Virus record (IMG/VR): IMGVR_UViG_2663762992_000009
Source: a virus
Lineage: Duplodnaviria > Heunggongvirae > Uroviricota > Caudoviricetes
Direction: 5' to 3' (one strand)
Length of the DNA stretch: 28,397 nt
The position numbers were made by a program, and so were the translations under genes. This document shows positions 3,712 to 28,397 of the stretch, piece after piece (the stretch's first letter is position 1; the number at the start of each line of letters is the position of its first letter). The notes beneath the pieces were generated by a model, which did not search any database, was not told the origin of the DNA, and was given only the letters and a program-made list of their open reading frames with translations.

Positions 3712-4267
3712 TCCCCCCTCCTTGTTATTTATACGCGTGCAATGCGACTATGATTGCCGCACGTCCCTTGTCGGCATGGACGTTTAGCACGTGCTGGCAT
3801 CGGCGTTGCCCTGTTTGTTGGATAGAAATCATGTTGTACTCGGAGAGAAAAACGGAAATGGCAAATAGTGGACAATATTCATAAATAGAGAGAATCCACA
3901 CGGTCGCCGCCCCGTAACAGGTTGGATCGCATAACAGGCCCCATCAAATGAGAATGAATATCGATTATACTAATTAATGCTTAGAACAGGATCATATACC
4001 TGTATCAGGTCAGTCCACTCTTCACCTAAACGTGCAGATGTGTTAATCCGTCTCCCTGCTTAGCACCACTCTTTTGGTGATATACCCGTTTTGGCATAGT
4101 CGGCGAGAGACTGGTGTTGCAGCACTGTCCAGTCCTGTTTTACCATAAACCCCCTAGTTTTATCTTTTAATTAATAGATATTAGTAAGATGAATCAATGA
4201 TGTGCTCAGAGCAAAGCACATCCTGCGTTGCTTTTAGTGCCATTTAACCTATAGAGAGATATGACGC

Positions 4268-4513
4268 GTGAGAAAGTTAATCTGTCTAATTTCGTTCGTT
4301 GCAACATGCGGATTCGGGTATCAGGCATACCAGCATCATGGACTGGCTTCTCTACTGGCTTTCTTAGTCAGCTTAGGGGCTTTTCTAACTGCTGTAGCCA
4401 ACTTAATAAGTGACAAGAAGAAGTCATCCTCTATAAGCCAAGTGATTGGTAATAACTCTTCAGGAATACAAGTCAGTGGTAATTTAACCATTAATGAAAA
4501 GGACAAAAAATGA
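4268..4513 (+). CDS. small membrane protein (two predicted TM helices), first gene of AT-rich moron
   Basis: GTG start with GAGAG about 9 nt upstream; hydrophobic segments LICLISFVATCGF and LASLLAFLVSLGAFLTAVANLI; visibly AT-rich; stop overlaps the next start (ATGA). Confidence 0.5.
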   Translation: MRKLICLISFVATCGFGYQAYQHHGLASLLAFLVSLGAFLTAVANLISDKKKSSSISQVIGNNSSGIQVSGNLTINEKDKK

Positions 4514-19491: not shown

Positions 19492-22400
19492 ATGAGTGAT
19501 AAGAAAGAAGATTTCGCGCTGTACTGCCCTGTTAAAAATGAAGAGGCCAGGAAACGACTTGGAATAAAAGCAGGCTTTTTCTGGGCAACTGCAAAAAAAT
19601 TATCTGTGGCTGTTTCCCGCTGTATTGCTGCTATGGACGATAAGGGGTATGACGAGGATGACTTTAAAAAACCTGTTCGCGTCAATTACCCCGTCGTTAA
19701 CGACCTGCCTCCTGAAGGCGTGTTTGATACTGAATTCTGCAACCGTTACGAAAAAGGCGGTCAGGGTGGTATCACAATGGTACTTATCCCCGGCGCTGTT
19801 CCCGCCGATCCAATGCACGGCGAAGTCGGCAGGGATATTACTGGCAGCGGCAACGCAGACGCAGACGCAGACGCAGGCACAGACGCAGATAATGCTACGG
19901 ACAATACCGAAAGTACGCTCCTCCCCGCTTACGCTTATAACGTCAACGGCGAACTGATGTCGGAAGTGGAAAAGGAAATGTCGCAGCCTGTTTCAGGACT
20001 AAGTCTGCCACTTCGTTTCCTGGCGCAATTTAATAACGACTGTCCACAACATCAGGTCACACCAGAGCGTTTACGGGAGTTAAACCTTACAGAGCAGGAT
20101 CCCGACAGTCGTACCGGAACTATTTTACTCGCCATCCAGAACAGAAAGGAACAGCTCGAAAAACTGGACACAAAAAACCTGCATCCTTTGGCGACGTACA
20201 TTGAAAAAGTATTTCCCTGCGGAAAACGACCACAACTCAATGATGTCATTAATTTTATCGATGCCGTACTTAATACAGACTATGTCGATCGCGGACTGCT
20301 CGTTAAGGAATGGTGCGAAGGTCGTCGAGCCGCGTGCGTAGAGCATGTAACAGCACCAGAAACCAGGCGTGATAATACTGTGTCAGCGCAGACGGAAACG
20401 AAGACTACTGTCACTGAACGTCCGCGTCGTAGCGAAAAAACAACGCACCGGACGATTAATTATGAAATTGGCTGTGGCTTATATGACGGCGAGCTGGATC
20501 TTCATAACCTGAGGGAACCGCTGGATTTTGCGAAACGCATTATGGCGAAAGACCGGGAAGACTGGAAAGTATGGTCAGACACAATCAACTGCATCCCTGG
20601 CATCCTGAATTATGACCGCCAGACCATTATCGAGATGGTACGAAAAGCCCCCACCCCGACTTATCACAGTGCTGCACTGCGCCGCGAGTGGTGTGATTCT
20701 TATCTGCGAGCCTGGGGACGGCTCGATCCCGACTGGAGCCAGAGCGCCGCTGTCAAAACAGCAGAGTCACATGAAGATGTCTGTGCTGATATCAGGAAGG
20801 CCGGAAAGCGCCTGCGTGAAATTGAATCAGGAGTTGGGATCAATGAAGAAAAACAGACGACACAGGGAGAACTGGCAGATGAACCGTCAGCGCCTGAATC
20901 AGTGGAACCGGCTTCAGCTGAACATCAGCAGAATACGCAGCCGCTGGATGCTGAGGCATCTGTAAACACCACTAAAACGGAATTCGATGTATTTGCTCTA
21001 ATGCAGAACTCATCTGTTTATGGCAGCAAAAACACACAGGAGACGACCAGCAATGTGCAGGTTCAGGACGCTGAAAAGGATGAAAAACAGGCTGGTACTG
21101 AAGTTCAGTCAGGCGAAAGCAGTCTGGGAACTGGTGAAGAGTCAGATACCAGACAGCAAGCCGATGTAAACCAGAATACGGATTCTGTCGCCCAAAATAG
21201 CGATTCTGTAAACCAAACTGAACCAGTTTTGGCACAAACCGAGCCAGAAGTGCAATCTGACGAACCGGCTGTTGTTTACCCCGCTTACTTCGAACCAGGC
21301 CGCTATGAGGGTCTGCCGAACGAGGTTTATCACGCAGCCAACGGTATCAGCTCGACAATGGTAAAAGATGCGCGGGTGAGCCTGATGTACTTCAATGCGC
21401 GCCACGTAGAGAAAACCATTATCAAAGAACGCTCTCCTGTACTGGATATCGGTAACCTGGTGCATGCACTGGCGTTGCAGCCAGATCAACTCGATGAAGA
21501 ATTCAGCATTGAACCCGTAATTCCGGAAGGTGCATTTACCACCACGGCAACGATCCGCGCGTTTATTGATGAGCACAACGCCAGCCTGACAGCGATGCTG
21601 TCAGCCGACGACATCAAAGCACTGTTAGAAGAGTACAACGCCACCCTTCCTGCTCAGGTTCAGTTAGGTGGTTCCGTGGAGGAAACTGGCCAGAGCTATA
21701 TGTCGCTGCCAGAAGAGTTCCAGCGTCTCGAAGCGGACAAGAAGCAGACCGCAGCGGCAATGAAAGCCTGCATCAAGGAATACAACACCACACTGCCTGC
21801 ACAAGTGAAAATCAGCGGTAGCCGTGATGCGTTACTCGAGCAGTTAGCAATCATCAATCCTGACCTGGTGGCGCAGGAAGCGCAGAAGCCCGCGCAGTTG
21901 AAAGTGTCCGGCACCAAAGCGGATCTGATTCAGGCCGTGAAGTCTGTTAATCCTGATGCCATCTTCGCCGACGAACTGCTGGATGCGTGGCGCGAAAATA
22001 CGCAAGGGAAAGTGCTGGTCACCCGCCAGCAACTGAGCACTGCACTGAGCATTCAGAAAGCCCTGCTCGAGCACCCTACAGCGGGCAAGCTACTGACACA
22101 CCCGAGCCGCGCCGTTGAGGTGAGCTACTTCGGTTTTGACGACGAAACCGGTCTGGAAGTCCGCGTTCGTCCCGACCTTGAGATCGATCTTGACGGGGTG
22201 CGCATCGGCGCCGACCTGAAAACCATCAGCATGTGGAACATTAAACAGGAAGGTCTGCGCGCCAAACTGCACCGCGAAATCATCGACCGTGACTACCACC
22301 TGAGTGCTGCCATGTATTGCGAGACCGCAGCGCTTGACCAGTTCTTCTGGATTTTCGTCAACAAAGACGAGAACTACCACTGGATCGCCATCATCGAGGC

Positions 22401-22596
22401 ATCCGCCGAACTTCTGGAACTGGGCATGCTGGAGTACCGCAAGGCAATGCGCGCCATCGCTACCGGCTTTGACACTGGCGAGTGGCCAGCGCCGATCACC
22501 TCCGGTAACTCCGATGAAATAGCCGACTACACCGACGAACTGAACGATTTCGACACACGCCGCCTTGAAGCGCTGCGTACGGCACAAGGGGAATGA
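19492..22596 (+). CDS. recE: RecE-like exonuclease VIII (C-terminal PD-(D/E)XK nuclease domain, long disordered N-terminal/central region)
   Basis: 1034 aa; C-terminal region carries the catalytic-type pattern RPDLEIDLDGVRIGADLKT; large acidic, low-complexity central region; followed by a translationally coupled annealing-protein-like gene; position matches Rac-type recE-recT order. Confidence 0.75.
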   Translation: MSDKKEDFALYCPVKNEEARKRLGIKAGFFWATAKKLSVAVSRCIAAMDDKGYDEDDFKKPVRVNYPVVNDLPPEGVFDTEFCNRYEKGGQGGITMVLIPGAVPADPMHGEVGRDITGSGNADADADAGTDADNATDNTESTLLPAYAYNVNGELMSEVEKEMSQPVSGLSLPLRFLAQFNNDCPQHQVTPERLRELNLTEQDPDSRTGTILLAIQNRKEQLEKLDTKNLHPLATYIEKVFPCGKRPQLNDVINFIDAVLNTDYVDRGLLVKEWCEGRRAACVEHVTAPETRRDNTVSAQTETKTTVTERPRRSEKTTHRTINYEIGCGLYDGELDLHNLREPLDFAKRIMAKDREDWKVWSDTINCIPGILNYDRQTIIEMVRKAPTPTYHSAALRREWCDSYLRAWGRLDPDWSQSAAVKTAESHEDVCADIRKAGKRLREIESGVGINEEKQTTQGELADEPSAPESVEPASAEHQQNTQPLDAEASVNTTKTEFDVFALMQNSSVYGSKNTQETTSNVQVQDAEKDEKQAGTEVQSGESSLGTGEESDTRQQADVNQNTDSVAQNSDSVNQTEPVLAQTEPEVQSDEPAVVYPAYFEPGRYEGLPNEVYHAANGISSTMVKDARVSLMYFNARHVEKTIIKERSPVLDIGNLVHALALQPDQLDEEFSIEPVIPEGAFTTTATIRAFIDEHNASLTAMLSADDIKALLEEYNATLPAQVQLGGSVEETGQSYMSLPEEFQRLEADKKQTAAAMKACIKEYNTTLPAQVKISGSRDALLEQLAIINPDLVAQEAQKPAQLKVSGTKADLIQAVKSVNPDAIFADELLDAWRENTQGKVLVTRQQLSTALSIQKALLEHPTAGKLLTHPSRAVEVSYFGFDDETGLEVRVRPDLEIDLDGVRIGADLKTISMWNIKQEGLRAKLHREIIDRDYHLSAAMYCETAALDQFFWIFVNKDENYHWIAIIEASAELLELGMLEYRKAMRAIATGFDTGEWPAPITSGNSDEIADYTDELNDFDTRRLEALRTAQGE
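19855..19890 (+). repeat. in-frame hexanucleotide tandem repeat (GCAGAC)n within the recE-like gene
   Basis: Six consecutive 6-nt units (gcagac x3, gcaggc, acagac, gcagat) encoding ADADADAGTDAD. Confidence 0.9.
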
Positions 22597-23648
22597 TGAT
22601 GGAAAAAAACAACGTAGCAGTAATTGAACATAACGAACCGAGCACGATGAATAACACATCCCTGCTTCTGAATATCGACGTCATGGATCGCATGATGAAG
22701 CTAGCAGAGGTGATGTCTCAGGGCGTCGCGACAGTACCGAAACATCTACAGGGAAGACCTTCTGATTGTCTGGCAATAATCATGCAGGCCGCTCGTTGGG
22801 GTATGGACCCATTTGTTGTAGGACAGAAAACACACCTGGTTAACGGGGCTCTGGGTTATGAAGCACAGCTTTACAACGCTTTAATCACCAGCTCCAAAGT
22901 TGTACACGGGCGCTTTAAATACGAGTACGGCGGTGAGTGGGAAAAAATTGTTGGCAAAAAAGACGGGCGTGATGAATCAGGTTTGTTTGTTCGTGTCGGA
23001 GCAGTTCTTCGAGGCGAGACAGAGGTGACCTGGGGAGAGCCAATTTACCTTGCTGATATTACTACGCGAAATTCCCCTTTGTGGAAAACCGCACCTAAAC
23101 AGCAAATAGGTTATTTGGCCGTTAAGTATTGGGCGAGGACTTACTGCCCTGAAGTCACAATGGGTGTTTATGACAGAGAAGATCTGGAACAACGAACAGA
23201 GCGCGAAATTAACCCTGCACCAATCCAACGAATGAGCGCTGCTGAAATCGCAGGTGACACCGTCACAACCACACAAAACACGCAGGAATCGTCAGTAAAT
23301 ATCGACTCACTGGCTGATGTTTTCCGCGAACGCATCAATGCTACGCAGGATGTAGACAGCGCCAAAGTAGTCCGGGCTGATATCGAAAGCGCGAAGGTCA
23401 CACTCGGTTCGGCTCTGTTCACCGAACTGAAAAACAAGGCAGTGAAGCGCTATTACCTGGTAGATCACCGCAACAAAGTTGAAGCCGCGATCAACTCCCT
23501 GCCGTCTCCGGACGAACCGAATGCAGCAGAACGGTTCGGAGAAGTTGAGCGAGCTCTTGCTGCGGCCAAACGTCACCTGGGTGACGAGCTGCACGATCAG
23601 TTCAGCATCACCCTGGCAGATATGAAACCGGAATACATCACTGCATAA
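22593..23648 (+). CDS. putative single-strand annealing protein partner of RecE (RecT/Red-beta superfamily, assigned mainly by synteny)
   Basis: Start overlaps the recE-like stop (ATGATGATGG, coupled translation); 351 aa with a globular N-terminal part and an acidic C-terminal tail; no specific motif identified by eye. Confidence 0.55.
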   Translation: MMMEKNNVAVIEHNEPSTMNNTSLLLNIDVMDRMMKLAEVMSQGVATVPKHLQGRPSDCLAIIMQAARWGMDPFVVGQKTHLVNGALGYEAQLYNALITSSKVVHGRFKYEYGGEWEKIVGKKDGRDESGLFVRVGAVLRGETEVTWGEPIYLADITTRNSPLWKTAPKQQIGYLAVKYWARTYCPEVTMGVYDREDLEQRTEREINPAPIQRMSAAEIAGDTVTTTQNTQESSVNIDSLADVFRERINATQDVDSAKVVRADIESAKVTLGSALFTELKNKAVKRYYLVDHRNKVEAAINSLPSPDEPNAAERFGEVERALAAAKRHLGDELHDQFSITLADMKPEYITA

Positions 23649-23663
23649 CGGAGGTGGTTGAAT

Positions 23664-24002
23664 ATGCCCAGATCAAACCCACCACAAAAGCAGGAGGCAC
23701 TCATTCAGATAATCATCGAGGAAGTGAACCTGCGTGGTCGCCTGACCGTTAACCAGGCATCAGAGATGTTGTCGCTGCACCGTGGGACAACAGAAAAGTA
23801 CTTTCGGGAAGCGACAATACGCGGTGGCCTTATTCGTCATGGACGCTGCGGCCTGTTCCGCGACCAGCGGGCTGTGCTTGATTTTGACTTACAGCGATTT
23901 TCGTACAACTCAGGAAAGTCCCTGGTGGATTTGCCGCCGGATTTTCGGGGAAGCGCGGTAATGCGCCGGGTTATTGAAATCGTGGGGAGGATGCCAGTAT
24001 GA
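23664..24002 (+). CDS. hypothetical protein (113 aa)
   Basis: ATG at 23664 with a GGAGG SD (9-nt spacing); HTH-like stretch (LTVNQASEMLSLHRGTTEKYF). Confidence 0.5.
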   Translation: MPRSNPPQKQEALIQIIIEEVNLRGRLTVNQASEMLSLHRGTTEKYFREATIRGGLIRHGRCGLFRDQRAVLDFDLQRFSYNSGKSLVDLPPDFRGSAVMRRVIEIVGRMPV

Positions 24003-24382
24003 CAATCGATAAACAGGCGCTGCGCCAATTAGCAACTGATGCGCACGAGCTTGGCATCATCAAGCGTTACACGAAAGGCATCGAGGCCAATAAGCGATTC
24101 ATCGCCGCATTCAACCCGGCTACGGTGCTGGCGCTGCTGGATGAGCTGGAGAAAGATAACTGCTCAAACGTTCATTATGCTGACGCCGCCGAGATGGAAA
24201 TTGCAGCATTACGCCAGCGCATAGCAGAACTGCAAATTGCTCGAGACAAATGTTTCCTGAGCGGCCTGAAAACCGGCTGGGAATATGGCATTGCTGATGA
24301 TACGGAAGGGTATAACCGTGAAATCGCTGATGCACAGGCAGTAATCGACCGCGCCGCTGGCATTGGCGTGAAGGGGGAATGA
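23999..24382 (+). CDS. hypothetical protein, possibly Ead/Ea22-like (tentative)
   Basis: 127-aa ORF, start overlapping the upstream stop; coiled-coil-like centre; family assignment from memory is weak. Confidence 0.45.
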   Translation: MTIDKQALRQLATDAHELGIIKRYTKGIEANKRFIAAFNPATVLALLDELEKDNCSNVHYADAAEMEIAALRQRIAELQIARDKCFLSGLKTGWEYGIADDTEGYNREIADAQAVIDRAAGIGVKGE

Positions 24383-24383
24383 G

Positions 24384-24566
24384 ATGGAACTAGTCATGTG
24401 GATATTCAAGTGCATAGGCGTAACTATTTGCCTGTTATCAGGGATACTGGTTACCGCTCTACTGGTGGGATTCGTAGCTCAATATTCCTGGGAAAAAATA
24501 AGGGTAGCTCATTCCGTTGTTGAAATTCAACGCGCCGTAAAGGCCTACAAAAACAAGAAGGACTAA
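24384..24566 (+). CDS. small membrane protein (60 aa, one TM helix)
   Basis: Hydrophobic segment IGVTICLLSGILVTALLVGFVA; start adjacent to the upstream stop. Confidence 0.45.
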   Translation: MELVMWIFKCIGVTICLLSGILVTALLVGFVAQYSWEKIRVAHSVVEIQRAVKAYKNKKD

Positions 24567-24683
24567 CCCATGACCACTATTACCAAAAAACAGCGTGCAG
24601 AGTTGCGCATGAAGTTCGGCGGTCGTTGTGCTTAGATTGGTAGCGCATGTCTGGCAGCACCGACACAAACAGAAGGATAACCG

Positions 24684-24941
24684 ATGTTCTGCCTGATTCA
24701 GCGTGGACAAATTTATACAGATTTTGACGGCTATCCTGTGACGATTTACCGCTGTGACGCCGACAGGATTGTGTATCGCCGTAATGACAGCCAAATCCGT
24801 TCGGTTTCCACTGGTGAATTTAATGCGAAATTCGAGCGTATTGAATATCAGGAATATGCGCAGATAAAAGCCGAAATGGCCCGGGAGGAAAATATCCGAA
24901 ATTTACGCAATCAGGCCAGAGAAAATAAAGCAGCAGGATAA
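24684..24941 (+). CDS. DUF4222-like small phage protein (tentative)
   Basis: 85 aa; pattern G.IY.D.DGYPVTIYR ... RIVYRR fits the DUF4222 profile as I recall it. Confidence 0.5.
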   Translation: MFCLIQRGQIYTDFDGYPVTIYRCDADRIVYRRNDSQIRSVSTGEFNAKFERIEYQEYAQIKAEMAREENIRNLRNQARENKAAG

Positions 24942-25033
24942 ACGCTGATATTGCCAGACAGTAAATAGAGGTAGAACGCTTAAAAACACCGCTCACGCGG
25001 CGGGATTCGTGCAGCCTGAAAACGGAGGACATT

Positions 25034-25258
25034 GTGGACGCATTATTACGATACGCAACAAACAGAATTATCGAACTGGAGACCATGCTGTTACCCGCAA
25101 TACCGGAAATCATCCTTCGGGATTACCGTGGCAAGAAGTACACCAAGGACAAGCAAATTACTAGCTGTGGTAATGCGGTACCACCGCAGTTAGCTGAGGC
25201 GCTGGTGAGAGCTAACCTGCCTGAAATGTGTGTACAGCGTGAGGATCAGGCTGCATGA
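25034..25258 (+). CDS. small ORF carrying a DNA cytosine-5 methyltransferase motif-X-like segment (possible methyltransferase remnant)
   Basis: GTG start with GGAGGA 4-5 nt upstream; segment KQITSCGNAVPPQLAEALV resembles the C-terminal motif X of C5 methyltransferases; 74 aa is far too short for a complete enzyme. Confidence 0.4.
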   Translation: MDALLRYATNRIIELETMLLPAIPEIILRDYRGKKYTKDKQITSCGNAVPPQLAEALVRANLPEMCVQREDQAA

Positions 25259-25608
25259 AAAAACATATCTGCATGTTTTGTGGTGAACCGGCCACGCTGC
25301 TCTGCGATGGGAATCTCGGCTTTCCTCCAAAAGATGACCGTGGCAGAGAATGCATTGACGCATTCCACCAATATACCTGCGATGCGCCCATGTGCAGAAA
25401 ATGTGGCACGCAGATGATGCGCATGTTCGTATCCGGGCGGAAACCTTATGCGGGGATCCACACAGTAGATCACTGCCCTATTTGTCTGCGTGATCTGCCA
25501 ACCTATCCAGCCCATGTGCGAAGGACATCTACTCGCAGGAGCAGGCAGAAGTTATCCGCGCTTCGCATTGGGCTGGTTACCAGAATGACCATACGAAACG
25601 GCTGGTAA
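25255..25608 (+). CDS. Cys-rich zinc-finger-like hypothetical protein
   Basis: 117 aa; CxxC pairs (CMFCGE, CRKCG, CPIC); start overlaps the upstream stop. Confidence 0.5.
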   Translation: MKKHICMFCGEPATLLCDGNLGFPPKDDRGRECIDAFHQYTCDAPMCRKCGTQMMRMFVSGRKPYAGIHTVDHCPICLRDLPTYPAHVRRTSTRRSRQKLSALRIGLVTRMTIRNGW

Positions 25609-25728
25609 CTGAAAAAGGAGCTGAGCTGCAATCCTTTGATTTCTGGACCTGATCATCGTTGTTCAACCCCGGCCATCAGCTATTACGTATAGTGCGCTGA
25701 TGGTCATAAAGTAAAAGAGACATGACCA

Positions 25729-25947
25729 ATGATTCAGCAAATCGTTTTTAATGAAGAATGGATGGTAGAAAAAAAACTACAGGATCGGACTGGTTTAAAT
25801 GACCGCCAGATTGAGAAATACAGGCAAAATTGCTGGATTGAAGGGGTTCATTTTAAAAGAGTATCTCCCTTAGGAAACCTCAGAAGTTCTCGCGGAACGA
25901 CCTGGTACAACTACCCCATGATTAACAAGTTTATTCAGGATTCCTAG
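25729..25947 (+). CDS. xis: excisionase-like protein
   Basis: 72-aa ORF immediately upstream of and nearly abutting the integrase gene; segment [27 protein letters not shown] is typical of putative excisionases of Rac/CP-933-type prophages. Confidence 0.65.
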
Positions 25948-25949
25948 CG

Positions 25950-27197
25950 ATGGCTGCTTTACCAACAGGTGTAGAAATCAGAGGTAGTAGCATCTGTATC
26001 TGGTTTATGTACAGAGGAAAACGTTGCCGCGAAACTCTCAGAGGATGGAGCATAACACCTGCTAATATCAGAAAAGCAGGTAATCTGCGCTCAATTATCG
26101 TCAGTGAAATCAACATGGGCGAGTTCGACTACCAGACTCGCTTCCCATCCTCCAAAAAAGCAATAAAAATTGTCACTACGGTTTCAGTCAGAACTCTAGG
26201 CGAACTCTGTGATCTGTGGCTGTCGATAAAAGAGACTGAACTGGCGGCTAACACCTTGCGCAAAACCAGCTCGCAGCTCGACACGCTGAAATTCATTATC
26301 AATAAAAACACGCCACTTTCGACGATTCGCCACAGCGACATTCTGAACTACCGCAACGAGCTGCTAAACGGAGAGACAAATTACCGAAACGCCACGAGAG
26401 GAAATAAAACCGGCCGTACCGCGCGCACGGTTGATAATTACATTTCCCTGCTCTGCTCCCTGCTCCGTTTTGCGCAGCACTCAGGGTTTATTAAGCACAA
26501 ACCTTTTGAGGGGGTTCGGAAGCTGCAAAAAGCCCGGATCAAACCGGACCCGCTCACAAAGCAGGAGTTTGCACAGTTGATGGAAGCAGAATACGGCCAG
26601 AGCCAGAATCTGTGGAAATTTGCAGTATATACGGGCCTTCGTCATGGTGAACTTGCTGCGCTGGCGTGGGAGGATGTGGATCTCGAGGCGGGAACAGTCA
26701 GCGTGTGCCGTAATCTGACCATTATCGGTACCTTCGGGCCGCCAAAGACAGATGCAGGCTACCGGACAATAAAGCTGCTGGAACCTGCGTTGGAAGCGTT
26801 GAAAGCACAGCGTGAACTTACCGCCCTCCAGCCAAAGTCAAAAATCGTTTTTAACCACCGTGAATATGGAAGGACAGAAACCCAGCGCGTGCACTTTGTT
26901 TTCATGCCAAGGATGCGTAAAGGCGAGCAAAAACCGTATTACAGCGTATCGAGCATCGGGCACCGTTGGAACGCTGCCGTAAAACGTGCTGGCATTCGTC
27001 GTCGGAATCCATATCACACACGGCATACTTTCGCCTGCTGGTTGTTATCCGCCGGTGCAAACCCGTCGTTTATCGCAAGTCAGATGGGACATGAAAATGC
27101 ACAAATGGTTTATGAAGTATATGCAACATGGATGGATGATATGAACAAAGATCAAATTGAACTAATTAATAGAAACTTACTAAACTCTTTATTTTAA
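25950..27197 (+). CDS. int: tyrosine site-specific integrase (lambda/Rac IntR-like)
   Basis: 415 aa; N-terminal arm-binding-like region (LPTGVEIRGSSICIWFMYRGKRCRETL); catalytic signature GLRHGELAAL ... HTRHTFACWLLSAGANPSFIASQMGH ... VY (R, H-x-x-R, Y). Confidence 0.9.
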   Translation: MAALPTGVEIRGSSICIWFMYRGKRCRETLRGWSITPANIRKAGNLRSIIVSEINMGEFDYQTRFPSSKKAIKIVTTVSVRTLGELCDLWLSIKETELAANTLRKTSSQLDTLKFIINKNTPLSTIRHSDILNYRNELLNGETNYRNATRGNKTGRTARTVDNYISLLCSLLRFAQHSGFIKHKPFEGVRKLQKARIKPDPLTKQEFAQLMEAEYGQSQNLWKFAVYTGLRHGELAALAWEDVDLEAGTVSVCRNLTIIGTFGPPKTDAGYRTIKLLEPALEALKAQRELTALQPKSKIVFNHREYGRTETQRVHFVFMPRMRKGEQKPYYSVSSIGHRWNAAVKRAGIRRRNPYHTRHTFACWLLSAGANPSFIASQMGHENAQMVYEVYATWMDDMNKDQIELINRNLLNSLF

Positions 27198-28397
27198 GAA
27201 AGATGATATAAACATCGTACAATTCAAAATCAGATTACTGAATGATAATGCCGACACTAAACCGAATATTTTATATAACGTGTTACATTGAGAATCCAAT
27301 GCATTCTCTTTTTTATTAAGCTCCGTCAACTCTAACTTTTTCAACTCATCACGCATTGTCCTAAAAAGAACACTATACTCTGACTGACATTCTTGCACCA
27401 ATACTTTTTGATAATTTGTAAGATAATATATGGTGAACGTCGTATATAAAGAAAGAACTATAGCTGCCATATTTAAAACCCACGAGTTTACATTATCAAA
27501 TTTCCCCATGGCAGCAAAACTGATTATTCCAGATATAGGAATGGCAAGTGACCTTGTAAGGGTGTCATACATTATGGAATTGAGTTTAGATAAATAATCC
27601 CTGAATTTCTCTTGGTACTCCTTTCTTATTTTTTCAAAACTAAACCCGACCGTAAACGAAAGGTAATTTTCTTGGAAAATCCGTGAGAACAATGTAAAGT
27701 CGGTTAAAATTTTTGAAAGTCGATCTTCTTTCTTTACTCTCCATAAAAAAGAGAACAATACGTTCTGTAGAATGTGTTTTTTCTCCTGTTCATGCAAGAG
27801 GTCAGAGAATAATTTTTCAAAACTTGAAAACCCATCAAATTCGTAAGCTAAATCTTCAAATTTATAGTTAAGATCTAAATACAATTTATTTTTTGATAAA
27901 AACAACAACTCTCTCCCGTTCTCCCCATCAGAACAATCTGTAAGTATTTTCCAAATTTTCGAAACTTGAAAATACCGTAATATTTCATTCCGGTTATAAT
28001 CATCAGGACAAATTGTGCATTTTCCTTCATTCGTAGTTGATGAAATTAAAATAAACCGATTACCAGCAAGAGGTCTATTTGCAACCAGCTCTTTTTCATC
28101 ATAAAAAACTTCGATCTGCCCTCTTAACCTGTCAAGGTTCATGCTGACAATAAAATATTTTACCCCTCCACTTTGCAGCATTGAGGGAGAATCGGACCAA
28201 GCGTGAAAATTACGTTTATAAATTTTAGAATTAAGTTCTACTTCATATTGAGGTTCCAGTAGGTATTGCTCACTACGTTTAAATGCGAGATCAAATACTT
28301 CCTGCTCAAATTGAAGTTCTAAAGTAAGAAAGCCATTATCGTATCCCATTATTTTGGATTTATTTAATATCTCCTTTATATTTTCAAAGCTTACCAT
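27189..28397 (-). CDS. AT-rich hypothetical protein with C-terminal TM helices, convergent with int (N-terminus at or beyond window edge)
   Basis: 402-codon ORF, strongly AT-rich; 3' end overlaps the int stop by 9 nt; C-terminal hydrophobic segments (AIPISGIISFAAMG, WVLNMAAIVLSLYTTFTIYYL, IFGLVSALSFSNLIL); ORF runs to the last base of the window. Confidence 0.7.
   Translation of the reverse strand: MVSFENIKEILNKSKIMGYDNGFLTLELQFEQEVFDLAFKRSEQYLLEPQYEVELNSKIYKRNFHAWSDSPSMLQSGGVKYFIVSMNLDRLRGQIEVFYDEKELVANRPLAGNRFILISSTTNEGKCTICPDDYNRNEILRYFQVSKIWKILTDCSDGENGRELLFLSKNKLYLDLNYKFEDLAYEFDGFSSFEKLFSDLLHEQEKKHILQNVLFSFLWRVKKEDRLSKILTDFTLFSRIFQENYLSFTVGFSFEKIRKEYQEKFRDYLSKLNSIMYDTLTRSLAIPISGIISFAAMGKFDNVNSWVLNMAAIVLSLYTTFTIYYLTNYQKVLVQECQSEYSVLFRTMRDELKKLELTELNKKENALDSQCNTLYKIFGLVSALSFSNLILNCTMFISSFLK

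What the first reader, a model, noticed from the sequence alone, without database searches (positions are those of the whole stretch)
25034..25258. Small ORF with a cytosine-5 DNA methyltransferase motif-X-like segment
The segment KQITSCGNAVPPQLAEALV resembles the C-terminal motif of C5 methyltransferases (Q.GNAV/GNSV followed by a hydrophobic helix). A complete enzyme needs about 300 aa or more, so this may be a translated remnant of a phage methyltransferase left after deletion. It has a good SD, so it may still be expressed.
Basis: partly seen in the sequence, partly recalled or inferred. Interest (0 to 1): 0.4.

Follow-up and report, generated by a model that had tools for sequence, protein, structure and literature searches.

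The report
Leftover tail of a deleted methyltransferase gene
The small ORF is a chimeric scar left when a 2.2-kb deletion in a prophage joined the first 25 codons of a small gene to the last 49 codons of a large phage cytosine-5 DNA methyltransferase; it is an ordinary gene remnant with no sign of function.

Summary
The ORF (25034..25258, +, GTG, 74 aa) is real, and its methyltransferase (MTase) likeness is true homology, not chance. Residues 26-74 are the C-terminal end (motif X and the tail) of a family of 480-740-aa prophage C5-MTases. Residues 1-25 come from a different gene, an 85-aa ORF ('g85', phrog_16025) that sits directly upstream of the MTase in most related loci.

Against a Salmonella prophage with both genes intact (L001), the window aligns on both sides of a 2,167-bp gap. 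The junction is at 25109, has 1 nt of microhomology and is in frame. Nothing else of the MTase survives anywhere in the window: motifs I, IV, VI, VIII, IX and the target-recognition region are gone.

The remnant carries L, T and S at three positions that are D, A and R in 67-68 of 68 intact enzymes. Its pN/pS is about 1, against about 0.1 for the neighbouring DUF4222 gene, though the counts are tiny.

Two more lesions lie within 1 kb: a 21-codon stub of an HNH gene upstream and a 1-nt frameshift in the downstream Cys-rich ORF.

This is an ordinary prophage gene remnant of low interest.

The parts
25024..25029 (+). GGAGGA Shine-Dalgarno, 4 nt upstream of the GTG start. It is inherited from the intact g85 gene.
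   Evidence: Read. The string GGAGGACATTGTGG precedes g85 in L001 as well.
25034..25258 (+). Chimeric 74-aa fusion ORF (GTG start, TGA stop).
   Evidence: The exact protein is P0001, recorded on many contigs. The window is identical to L007 over 22500-28397.
25034..25108 (+). Codons 1-25, derived from the 5' end of the 85-aa gene 'g85' (phrog_16025).
   Evidence: Window 24634-25109 aligns to L001 3601-4076 at 96%. tblastn of g85 residues 1-27 gives E 1e-11. phrog_16025 positions 1-27/85, E 2.2e-6. None of residues 20-25 match the MTase family consensus, 0/68 at each position.
25109..25109 (+). Deletion junction. A single A is shared by both flanks (1-nt microhomology). 2,167 bp are missing relative to L001 (4077-6243).
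25109..25255 (+). Codons 26-74, the last 48-49 codons of a ~700-aa phage C5-MTase: the linker after motif IX, motif X and the C-terminal tail.
   Evidence: Window 25109-25224 aligns to L001 6244-6359 at 94.8%. MTase residues 664-707 hit with E 2e-19. phrog_23072 positions 352-400/400. Window 25139-25729 aligns to L004 4088-4678 at 83.7%.
25151..25207 (+). Motif X segment KQITSCGNAVPPQLAEALV; the CGNAVPP core is at 25166-25186. T43 and S44 replace A and R, which are invariant or nearly so in intact enzymes.
   Evidence: Conservation table from 68 intact relatives: A 67/68, R 68/68, CGN(A/S)VPP 68/68.
25255..25608 (+). Downstream Cys-rich 117-aa ORF (phrog_10082). Its start overlaps the fusion ORF's stop (ATGA). 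It carries a 1-nt deletion near 25525 relative to 130-aa homologues, so the conserved C-terminal tail is out of frame.
   Evidence: The ORF is removed altogether in L011, which lacks window 25284-25636.
24684..24941 (+). Intact DUF4222 gene, the upstream neighbour, also found upstream of g85 in L001. Used as the selection control.
   Evidence: PF13973, E 1e-12. pN/pS 0.07-0.11. Synteny.
24570..24635 (+). 21-codon stub (MTTITKKQRAELRMKFGGRCA*) of a 140-aa HNH-like gene; a second deletion scar.
   Evidence: Window 24575-24634 aligns to L011 2913-2970. The full gene in L011 2909-3331 reads MALTKKQRAELRMKFGGRCAYCG...HADH. Homology to L001 resumes at 24634.

Best explanation
The ORF is a non-functional by-product of a deletion.

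Inferred ancestor: the prophage carried, in its leftward early operon between the RecE/RecT recombination genes and xis/int, a conserved two-gene module. This was an 85-aa gene (g85) followed immediately by a ~700-aa orphan phage cytosine-5 DNA methyltransferase, which was itself followed by a small Cys-rich ORF.

Shown: relative to that arrangement, about 2.17 kb is missing. The event had essentially no homology at the junction (1 nt). It removed g85 from codon 26 onward and the first ~663 codons of the methyltransferase, and it happened to join the two reading frames in phase.

Consequence: the resulting 74-aa ORF keeps g85's ribosome-binding site and GTG start and the methyltransferase's stop codon. 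It may therefore be translated whenever the early operon is transcribed. It retains only motif X and lacks the AdoMet-binding motif I, the catalytic Cys motif IV, motifs VI, VIII and IX and the whole DNA-recognition region, so it cannot methylate DNA.

Inferred: since the deletion it has drifted neutrally. It is one of three lesions in a 1-kb stretch of accessory genes that is being eroded.
For: Mapping of the deletion:
- Window 24634-25109 matches L001 3601-4076 (96%) and window 25109-25224 matches L001 6244-6359 (94.8%). The junction bases are read directly.
- In L001-L003 the intervening DNA encodes the rest of g85 and a 711-aa ORF with PF00145.

Ancestral layout:
- In Citrobacter braakii L029 the two halves of the 74-aa ORF map 2.1 kb apart (2034-2114 and 4232-4378). 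They flank an intact 697-aa MTase that is followed directly by the Cys-rich ORF homologue.
- g85 precedes the MTase in about 60 of 80 species-representative loci.

Chimeric nature:
- Two separate PHROG families hit residues 1-27 and residues 26-74.
- No other MTase fragment exists in the window in any frame; all other tblastn hits have E>2.

Relaxed constraint:
- L28, T43 and S44 occur 0/68 times at positions that are D 67/68, A 67/68 and R 68/68 in intact enzymes.
- The sister allele L011 carries S at an N that is 68/68 invariant.
- pN/pS is 0.8-1.2 in the remnant against 0.07-0.11 in the adjacent DUF4222 gene.

Neighbouring decay and precedent:
- An HNH stub lies upstream. The Cys-rich ORF is frameshifted and is deleted outright in L011.
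- Truncated prophage C5-MTase genes have been reported before (PMC8936443).
Against: The ORF is intact, with the same junction, in two lineages that differ by 4% in DNA: the window/L006-L010 and Salmonella L011/L012. It is recorded on many contigs. Some persistence is therefore evident, though 225 nt staying open by chance is unremarkable.

The substitution counts are very small (5 non-synonymous against 2 synonymous), so the pN/pS contrast is not statistically significant on its own.

L001 is not the direct ancestor. Its 3' flank differs (a Phage_GPA gene), and the last 34 nt of the window ORF resemble L004 instead.

Expression and lack of activity are inferred, not measured.
Confidence: 0.9

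Rival explanations
1. The fusion peptide is a functional small protein. It could be the small subunit of a split C5-MTase, complementing an N-terminal fragment encoded elsewhere (as in the two-polypeptide enzyme M.AquI, recalled from memory). Alternatively it could be a neo-functionalised peptide that interferes with related MTases.
For: It has a native SD and start codon and lies in an operon with no predicted terminator on the + strand nearby. The ORF stays open in two diverged lineages. Short C-terminal MTase ORFs are common enough to form their own PHROG family, phrog_13621, and recur in many genomes.
Against: Motif IX, which a C-terminal subunit would need, is deleted: residues 20-25 match 0/68 at the GFPxWY positions. 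No N-terminal partner exists in the window. Three invariant or near-invariant residues are replaced, including R44 next to the CGN core. pN/pS is about 1. The first 25 residues are the non-conserved N-terminal part of g85; more distant g85 relatives align only from about residue 20 onward. The abundance of short hits partly reflects contig ends and the search's bias toward short proteins.
Confidence: 0.05
2. The 3' end of the MTase gene is retained because it carries the SD (GAGGA at 25241-25245) and the ATGA stop/start overlap needed for translational coupling to the downstream Cys-rich ORF. Deletions reaching further would then be selected against.
For: The ATGA overlap is at 25255-25258. 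The same 4-nt overlap links the MTase, or its remnant, to the next gene in L001 and L004. An independent truncation in L004 also leaves about 68 C-terminal codons.
Against: In the window the downstream ORF is itself frameshifted. In L011 it is deleted while the fusion ORF persists unchanged in length. So no current selective need for coupling is evident. Finding only remnants that keep the C-terminus is an ascertainment effect of searching with the C-terminus.
Confidence: 0.08
3. The GNAV similarity is coincidental and the ORF belongs to an unrelated small-protein family.
For: The Pfam PF00145 score is below the gathering threshold (12.1 against 22 bits).
Against: There is 94.8% nucleotide identity over 116 nt to the 3' end of an intact 711-aa MTase gene. 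tblastn gives E 2e-19. The PHROG MTase family gives E 1.3e-13 at the extreme C-terminus of the profile. Residues 26-66 track the family consensus in 68 intact enzymes.
Confidence: 0.01

Closest known systems
Large orphan C5 DNA methyltransferases of enterobacterial temperate phages and prophages (PF00145; phrog_23072 / phrog_116). Examples: the 711-aa protein of Salmonella prophage L001, and the 'DNA methyltransferase' or 'putative methylase' of Escherichia phages Flotzy and Eeyore, Klebsiella phage 5 LV-2017, Citrobacter phage phiNP and Pectobacterium phage ZF40.
   Same: Residues 26-74 are homologous to the last 48-49 residues of these enzymes: 86% aa identity to L001 and 94.8% at the DNA level. 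The motif X core CGNAVPP and the ...AEALVRANLPEMC tail are the same. The genomic position, in the early-left operon of a lambdoid/Rac-like prophage, is also the same.
   Different: About 93% of the enzyme is missing, including motifs I-IX and the variable region. Three invariant or near-invariant residues are substituted. The N-terminus is foreign, coming from g85. It is a fragment by descent, not an enzyme.
g85 / phrog_16025 (85-aa ORF immediately upstream of the MTase; labelled 'DNA methyltransferase' in PHROGs)
   Same: Codons 1-25, the SD and the GTG start are those of g85.
   Different: Only positions 1-27 of the 85-position profile remain. The part conserved across genera, roughly residues 20-85, is deleted.
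Truncated prophage C5-MTase genes, such as the truncated batIM homologue in a Bacillus thuringiensis prophage (PMC8936443)
   Same: An orphan prophage C5-MTase inactivated by truncation in an otherwise similar prophage. This shows the gene is dispensable for the prophage.
   Different: That case involves a different MTase subfamily and host. Here the truncation also creates an in-frame fusion with the upstream gene.
Two-polypeptide C5-MTase M.AquI (alpha plus beta subunits; recalled from memory, not checked here)
   Same: A short polypeptide carrying the C-terminal conserved motifs of a C5-MTase.
   Different: The M.AquI beta subunit carries motifs IX and X and has an alpha partner encoded next to it. 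Here motif IX is absent and there is no partner in the window.

Membership tests
C5 DNA methyltransferase (PF00145), as a functional enzyme | Motif I (FxGxG, AdoMet binding) | tested here: not met
   tblastn of the intact 711-aa relative against the whole window finds only residues 664-707. The FAGGGG motif is present in L001 but absent from the window.
C5 DNA methyltransferase (PF00145), as a functional enzyme | Motif IV (Pro-Cys catalytic nucleophile) | tested here: not met
   SPDCRHFS is present in L001 and in 68 intact relatives. It is absent from the window.
C5 DNA methyltransferase (PF00145), as a functional enzyme | Motifs VI and VIII and the target-recognition (variable) region | tested here: not met
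   No match in any frame of the window. These parts lie within the 2,167 bp that are missing.
C5 DNA methyltransferase (PF00145), as a functional enzyme | Motif IX (…QGFPxxY…) | tested here: not met
   At the positions where 68/68 intact enzymes have G-F-P…Y, the window has L-P-A…E from g85, 0/68 matches. The junction falls just after motif IX.
C5 DNA methyltransferase (PF00145), as a functional enzyme | Motif X (GN[AS]VP followed by a helix) | tested here: met
   CGNAVPP plus LAEALVRANLPEMC is present. It falls on PF00145 profile positions 281-320/324 and on phrog_23072 positions 352-400/400.
C5 DNA methyltransferase (PF00145), as a functional enzyme | Pfam gathering threshold for the whole protein | tested here: not met
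   12.1 bits against a cut-off of 22, E 0.13.
C5 DNA methyltransferase, by descent (gene fragment) | Significant sequence homology to the family, collinear with its C-terminus | tested here: met
g85 / phrog_16025 | Full-length match to the 85-position profile | tested here: not met
   Only positions 1-27/85 match (E 2.2e-6), whereas intact g85 matches 1-84/85 with E 1e-37.
Split C5-MTase small subunit (M.AquI-beta-like) | Carries motifs IX and X, with a partner ORF carrying motifs I-VIII | tested here: not met
   Motif IX is absent. There is no partner in the window. The rest of the genome could not be tested.

The most novel reading that the evidence does not exclude
The in-frame g85::MTase-tail peptide is translated on prophage induction and has acquired a role of its own. 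For example, its motif-X helix might dock onto the motif-I subdomain of related MTases from co-resident or superinfecting phages and poison them. This would explain why the ORF stays open in two diverged lineages even where the downstream gene has been lost.
Probability: 0.03. Interest if true: 0.45.

Novelty: new member of a known kind. Interest (0 to 1): 0.1.

Why it matters
It matters mostly for annotation. The protein is deposited as a 'hypothetical protein' on many contigs and should be labelled a chimeric pseudogene remnant (g85 5' end fused to a C5-MTase 3' end).

It also marks this prophage lineage as having lost its orphan cytosine methyltransferase. One would therefore predict no phage-specific 5mC protection of its DNA.

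Finally, together with the neighbouring lesions, it gives a clean, base-resolved example of illegitimate (1-nt microhomology) deletion eroding the accessory early region of a Rac-like prophage. None of this is surprising to a specialist.

Tried and rejected
- Megablast of 24400-25700 against the phage collection gave only short hits of at most 73 nt to the HNH stub region. It gave no hit against 5,426 complete E. coli genomes. A wider query, 22500-28397, hit mainly RecT at 78-87% identity. Those collections therefore hold no close relative of this locus, and the window is probably not from a typical E. coli despite one source label. The nearest relatives are Salmonella assemblies.
- Pfam alone was inconclusive because the hit is sub-threshold.
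- The search for homologous proteins returned only short proteins of 40-127 aa. I first wondered whether a stand-alone C-terminal mini-protein family exists. Context look-ups and a genome scan showed that the norm is a 480-740-aa enzyme: 68 of 80 loci are intact. Many short hits are contig-end fragments or independent truncations.
- The promoter/terminator scan found no + strand promoter or terminator near the ORF, so there is no evidence for independent transcription.
- PADLOC gave only weak MTase_II hits to the motif X region and nothing for the neighbours.
- The PDB sequence search with the intact parent found only generic C5-MTases (3g7u, DNMT1) and no close structure.
- I did not run structure prediction of the 74-aa peptide. 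A single-sequence model of a chimeric fragment would not discriminate between the hypotheses.
- I considered insertion in L001 rather than deletion in the window. I rejected it because both interrupted genes are full-length, profile-complete and widespread elsewhere.

Full report
**Observation.** The ORF is at 25034..25258 on the + strand, with a GTG start and 74 codons. A GGAGGA sits at 25024-25029.

Pfam gives only a sub-threshold hit to PF00145 (12.1 bits, E 0.13). That hit lies at the extreme C-terminal end of the profile, positions 281-320 of 324, which is where motif X belongs.

A search of 5.8 billion proteins returned 86 hits. Apart from two near-identical copies, they are C-terminal pieces of proteins that carry PF00145 or are named DNA cytosine methyltransferase, with E down to 5e-17.

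**The ORF is a chimera.** The aligned hits share ...GFPEWYIIDRDYRGKKYAKDKQVARCGNAVPPPFAEALVRANLPEMC...AA with residues 26-74 of the window protein. They do not share its first 25 residues.

One weak hit, P0085, shares only those first 25 residues (MDALLRYSINRIIELETMLLPAIPE) and then continues as an unrelated 85-aa protein. I call this gene g85.

PHROG profiles say the same thing independently:
- Residues 26-74 match the last 49 positions of a DNA-methyltransferase family (phrog_23072, E 1.3e-13).
- Residues 1-27 match the first 27 of the 85 positions of phrog_16025 (E 2.2e-6). The intact g85 matches that family end to end (E 1e-37).

**The deletion.** In three Salmonella assemblies (L001-L003) the gene order is DUF4222, g85, then a 711-aa PF00145 protein. 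The 711-aa gene overlaps the g85 stop. Its translation shows motif I (FAGGGG), motif IV (SPDCRHFS) and the C-terminal ...QGFPDWYIIDRDYRGKKYAKDKQIARCGNAVPPQLAEALVRANLPELC.

blastn aligns window 24634-25109 to L001 3601-4076 at 96% identity. It aligns window 25109-25224 to L001 6244-6359 at 94.8%. The window therefore lacks L001 4077-6243, which is 2,167 bp.

Reading the three sequences side by side shows a single shared A at the junction. This indicates an illegitimate event with essentially no homology. The deletion length is congruent to 1 mod 3, which brings the g85 frame and the MTase frame into phase. The fusion joins g85 codon 25 to MTase codon 664.

It finds only residues 664-707 (E 2e-19). 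Every other hit has E>2. No further MTase debris exists.

**Direction of the event and the ancestral layout.** I scanned species-representative genomes with the C-terminal 126 aa of the L001 enzyme. Of the best 80 loci, 68 carry an intact ORF of 481-737 aa with motifs I and IV. A g85 homologue lies directly upstream in about 60 of them.

In Citrobacter braakii (L029) the two halves of the window ORF map 2.1 kb apart, at 2034-2114 and 4232-4378. They flank an intact 697-aa MTase, and the Cys-rich ORF homologue follows immediately. So g85, the MTase and the Cys-rich ORF form the intact arrangement, and the window is the derived, deleted state.

L001 is a close relative rather than the direct ancestor. 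Beyond 25224 the window resembles L004, at 83.7% over 25139-25729, and not L001, whose next gene is a Phage_GPA homologue.

**What is left and whether it could work.** Aligning on the CGN[AS]VPP core of the 68 intact enzymes shows that the window matches the family from residue 26 (I) to residue 66 (C). At the six preceding positions it matches none of them, including G-F-P and Y of motif IX, which are 68/68 conserved. Only motif X and the tail survive, about 7% of the enzyme.

From established knowledge of C5-MTases, motif I binds AdoMet, the motif IV cysteine is the nucleophile, and the variable region reads the target sequence. A fragment with motif X alone therefore cannot methylate DNA.

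**Evidence of drift.** Within the retained 41 residues the window has three substitutions at conserved positions:
- L28, where 67/68 intact enzymes have D.
- T43, where 67/68 have A.
- S44, where 68/68 have R.

The Salmonella sister allele (L011, same junction) shares T43 and S44 and keeps D28. It has S at an N that is 68/68 conserved.

Nei-Gojobori counts give pN/pS of 0.77-1.16 for the remnant (window vs L001, window vs L011). The adjacent DUF4222 gene gives 0.07-0.11 in the same comparisons. The counts are tiny (5 against 2, and 4 against 1), so this is supportive and not significant alone. The hits at invariant residues are the stronger argument.

**Neighbourhood.** The locus lies in the leftward early operon of a Rac-like prophage. 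The gene order is:
- RecE-like exonuclease VIII (19492-22596)
- RecT (22593-23648)
- DUF977
- Ead/Ea22
- a 60-aa ORF
- DUF4222
- the fusion ORF
- the Cys-rich ORF
- DUF1233 excisionase (25729-25947)
- integrase (25950-27197)

No + strand promoter or terminator is predicted around the ORF, so it would be transcribed with the operon.

Two further lesions flank it:
- At 24570-24635 a 21-codon ORF (MTTITKKQRAELRMKFGGRCA*) is the stub of a 140-aa HNH-like gene that is intact in L011.
- The Cys-rich ORF (25255-25608) has a 1-nt deletion near 25525 relative to its 130-aa homologues. This puts the conserved ...EQAxxIRAxHWAGY...FDF tail out of frame.

In L011 that ORF is removed by a further 353-bp deletion, while the fusion ORF persists. 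The region is being eroded stepwise.

**Distribution.** The window is 100% identical to L007 over 22500-28397 and 99.97-99.98% identical to L006 and L008-L010. The exact protein is indexed in about 80 blocks of the assembly collection.

The 24400-25700 segment has no megablast match in 5,426 complete E. coli genomes. The wider 22500-28397 query yields mainly RecT at 78-87%. So despite one 'E. coli' source label, the element is rare or absent in typical E. coli, and its nearest relatives are in Salmonella.

**Comparison with known things.** The parent enzyme belongs to a widespread family of large orphan C5-MTases of temperate phages. tblastn finds 100 phage records covering at least 80% of the query. 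The closest are Klebsiella phage Kpn_R1 at 79% and Escherichia phages Flotzy and Eeyore at 72%. No close solved structure exists.

Truncation of an orphan prophage C5-MTase in an otherwise similar prophage has been reported for the batIM family (PMC8936443).

A split C5-MTase, M.AquI, is known to me from memory. Its small subunit carries motifs IX and X and has an adjacent partner. Neither condition holds here.

**Verdict.** The refinements are that the ORF is an in-frame fusion of the 5' end of g85 with the 3' end of a ~700-aa MTase, and that a mapped 2,167-bp deletion created it.

The most likely status is a non-functional remnant that may be translated (confidence about 0.9). The residual possibility of a functional peptide is small. 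This is an ordinary prophage gene remnant and useful mainly for annotation.

Noticed in passing
window 24570-24635: A 21-codon ORF, MTTITKKQRAELRMKFGGRCA*, is the 5' stub of a 140-aa HNH-endonuclease-like gene that is intact in Salmonella locus L011 (2909-3331). Homology to L001 and L011 resumes exactly at the stop codon (24634). It is a second deletion scar, about 400 bp upstream of the finding.
   Followed up: yes
window 25255-25608 (lesion near 25525): The Cys-rich 117-aa ORF (phrog_10082, unknown function) has a 1-nt deletion relative to 130-aa homologues in L004, L029 and L032. The conserved C-terminal tail (...EQAxxIRAxHWAGY...FDF) is readable in another frame. The same frameshift is present in L006-L010, so it is not a sequencing error of the window. 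The ORF is deleted entirely in L011.
   Followed up: yes
L001 4001-4258 and about 60 of loci L014-L093: An 85-aa gene (g85, phrog_16025, no Pfam) sits immediately upstream of the large C5-MTase across many Enterobacterales genera, forming a conserved two-gene module of unknown logic. In phage Flotzy (L013 2823-2990) the g85-like residues form the C-terminal end of the CDS annotated as PAPS reductase. g85 also resembles the C-terminus of another MTase family (phrog_111).
   Followed up: partly
L001 4255-6390 and 68 intact relatives (L014-L093): The intact MTases (481-737 aa) contain 2-9 tandem copies of a PxxT[IVL][TL] motif (for example PLQTITKKHG, PVPTVTAGTS) spaced about 32-68 aa apart in the variable region. 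Copy number correlates with protein length (r=0.76). This resembles the tandem target-recognition modules of multispecific Bacillus phage C5-MTases (that comparison is from memory). It may mean these prophage enzymes methylate several motifs.
   Followed up: partly
P0014, P0016, P0040 (proteins; Klebsiella and relatives): These 96-97-aa ORFs, recorded on 24-51 contigs, consist of motif I (…DNFAGGGGASTGIELAIGRSVDI) joined directly to motifs IX-X (GMRMLQPHELY…CGNAVPP…). They appear to be in-frame internal deletions across a shared 'VDI' microhomology. They are a recurrent mini-version of the same MTase.
   Followed up: no
window 26988-27139 and 27189-28397 (- strand); L006 8156-10760: The last ~150 bp of the integrase gene has an 80%-identical copy about 100 bp upstream of the ttcA-like (ATP_bind_3) host gene (L006 10609-10760). 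Between the two copies lie a 402-aa ORF (phrog_5023, unknown function; its 3' end overlaps the int 3' end by 9 nt, the two being convergent) and an NA37-family gene. This looks like a remnant of an earlier integration, or a cargo island at the same att site. Neither protein has a PADLOC hit.
   Followed up: partly
L004 4001-4207; L052 3058-4336: There are independent truncations of the same MTase in other prophages. One is a 68-aa remnant starting at the internal Met of motif IX, next to DUF1187 and xis/int (L004). The other is a 115-aa ORF in Enterobacteriaceae bacterium G50, where g85 and the MTase tail are only about 1 kb apart (L052). About 10 of the 80 species-representative loci have a disrupted MTase ORF.
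   Followed up: partly
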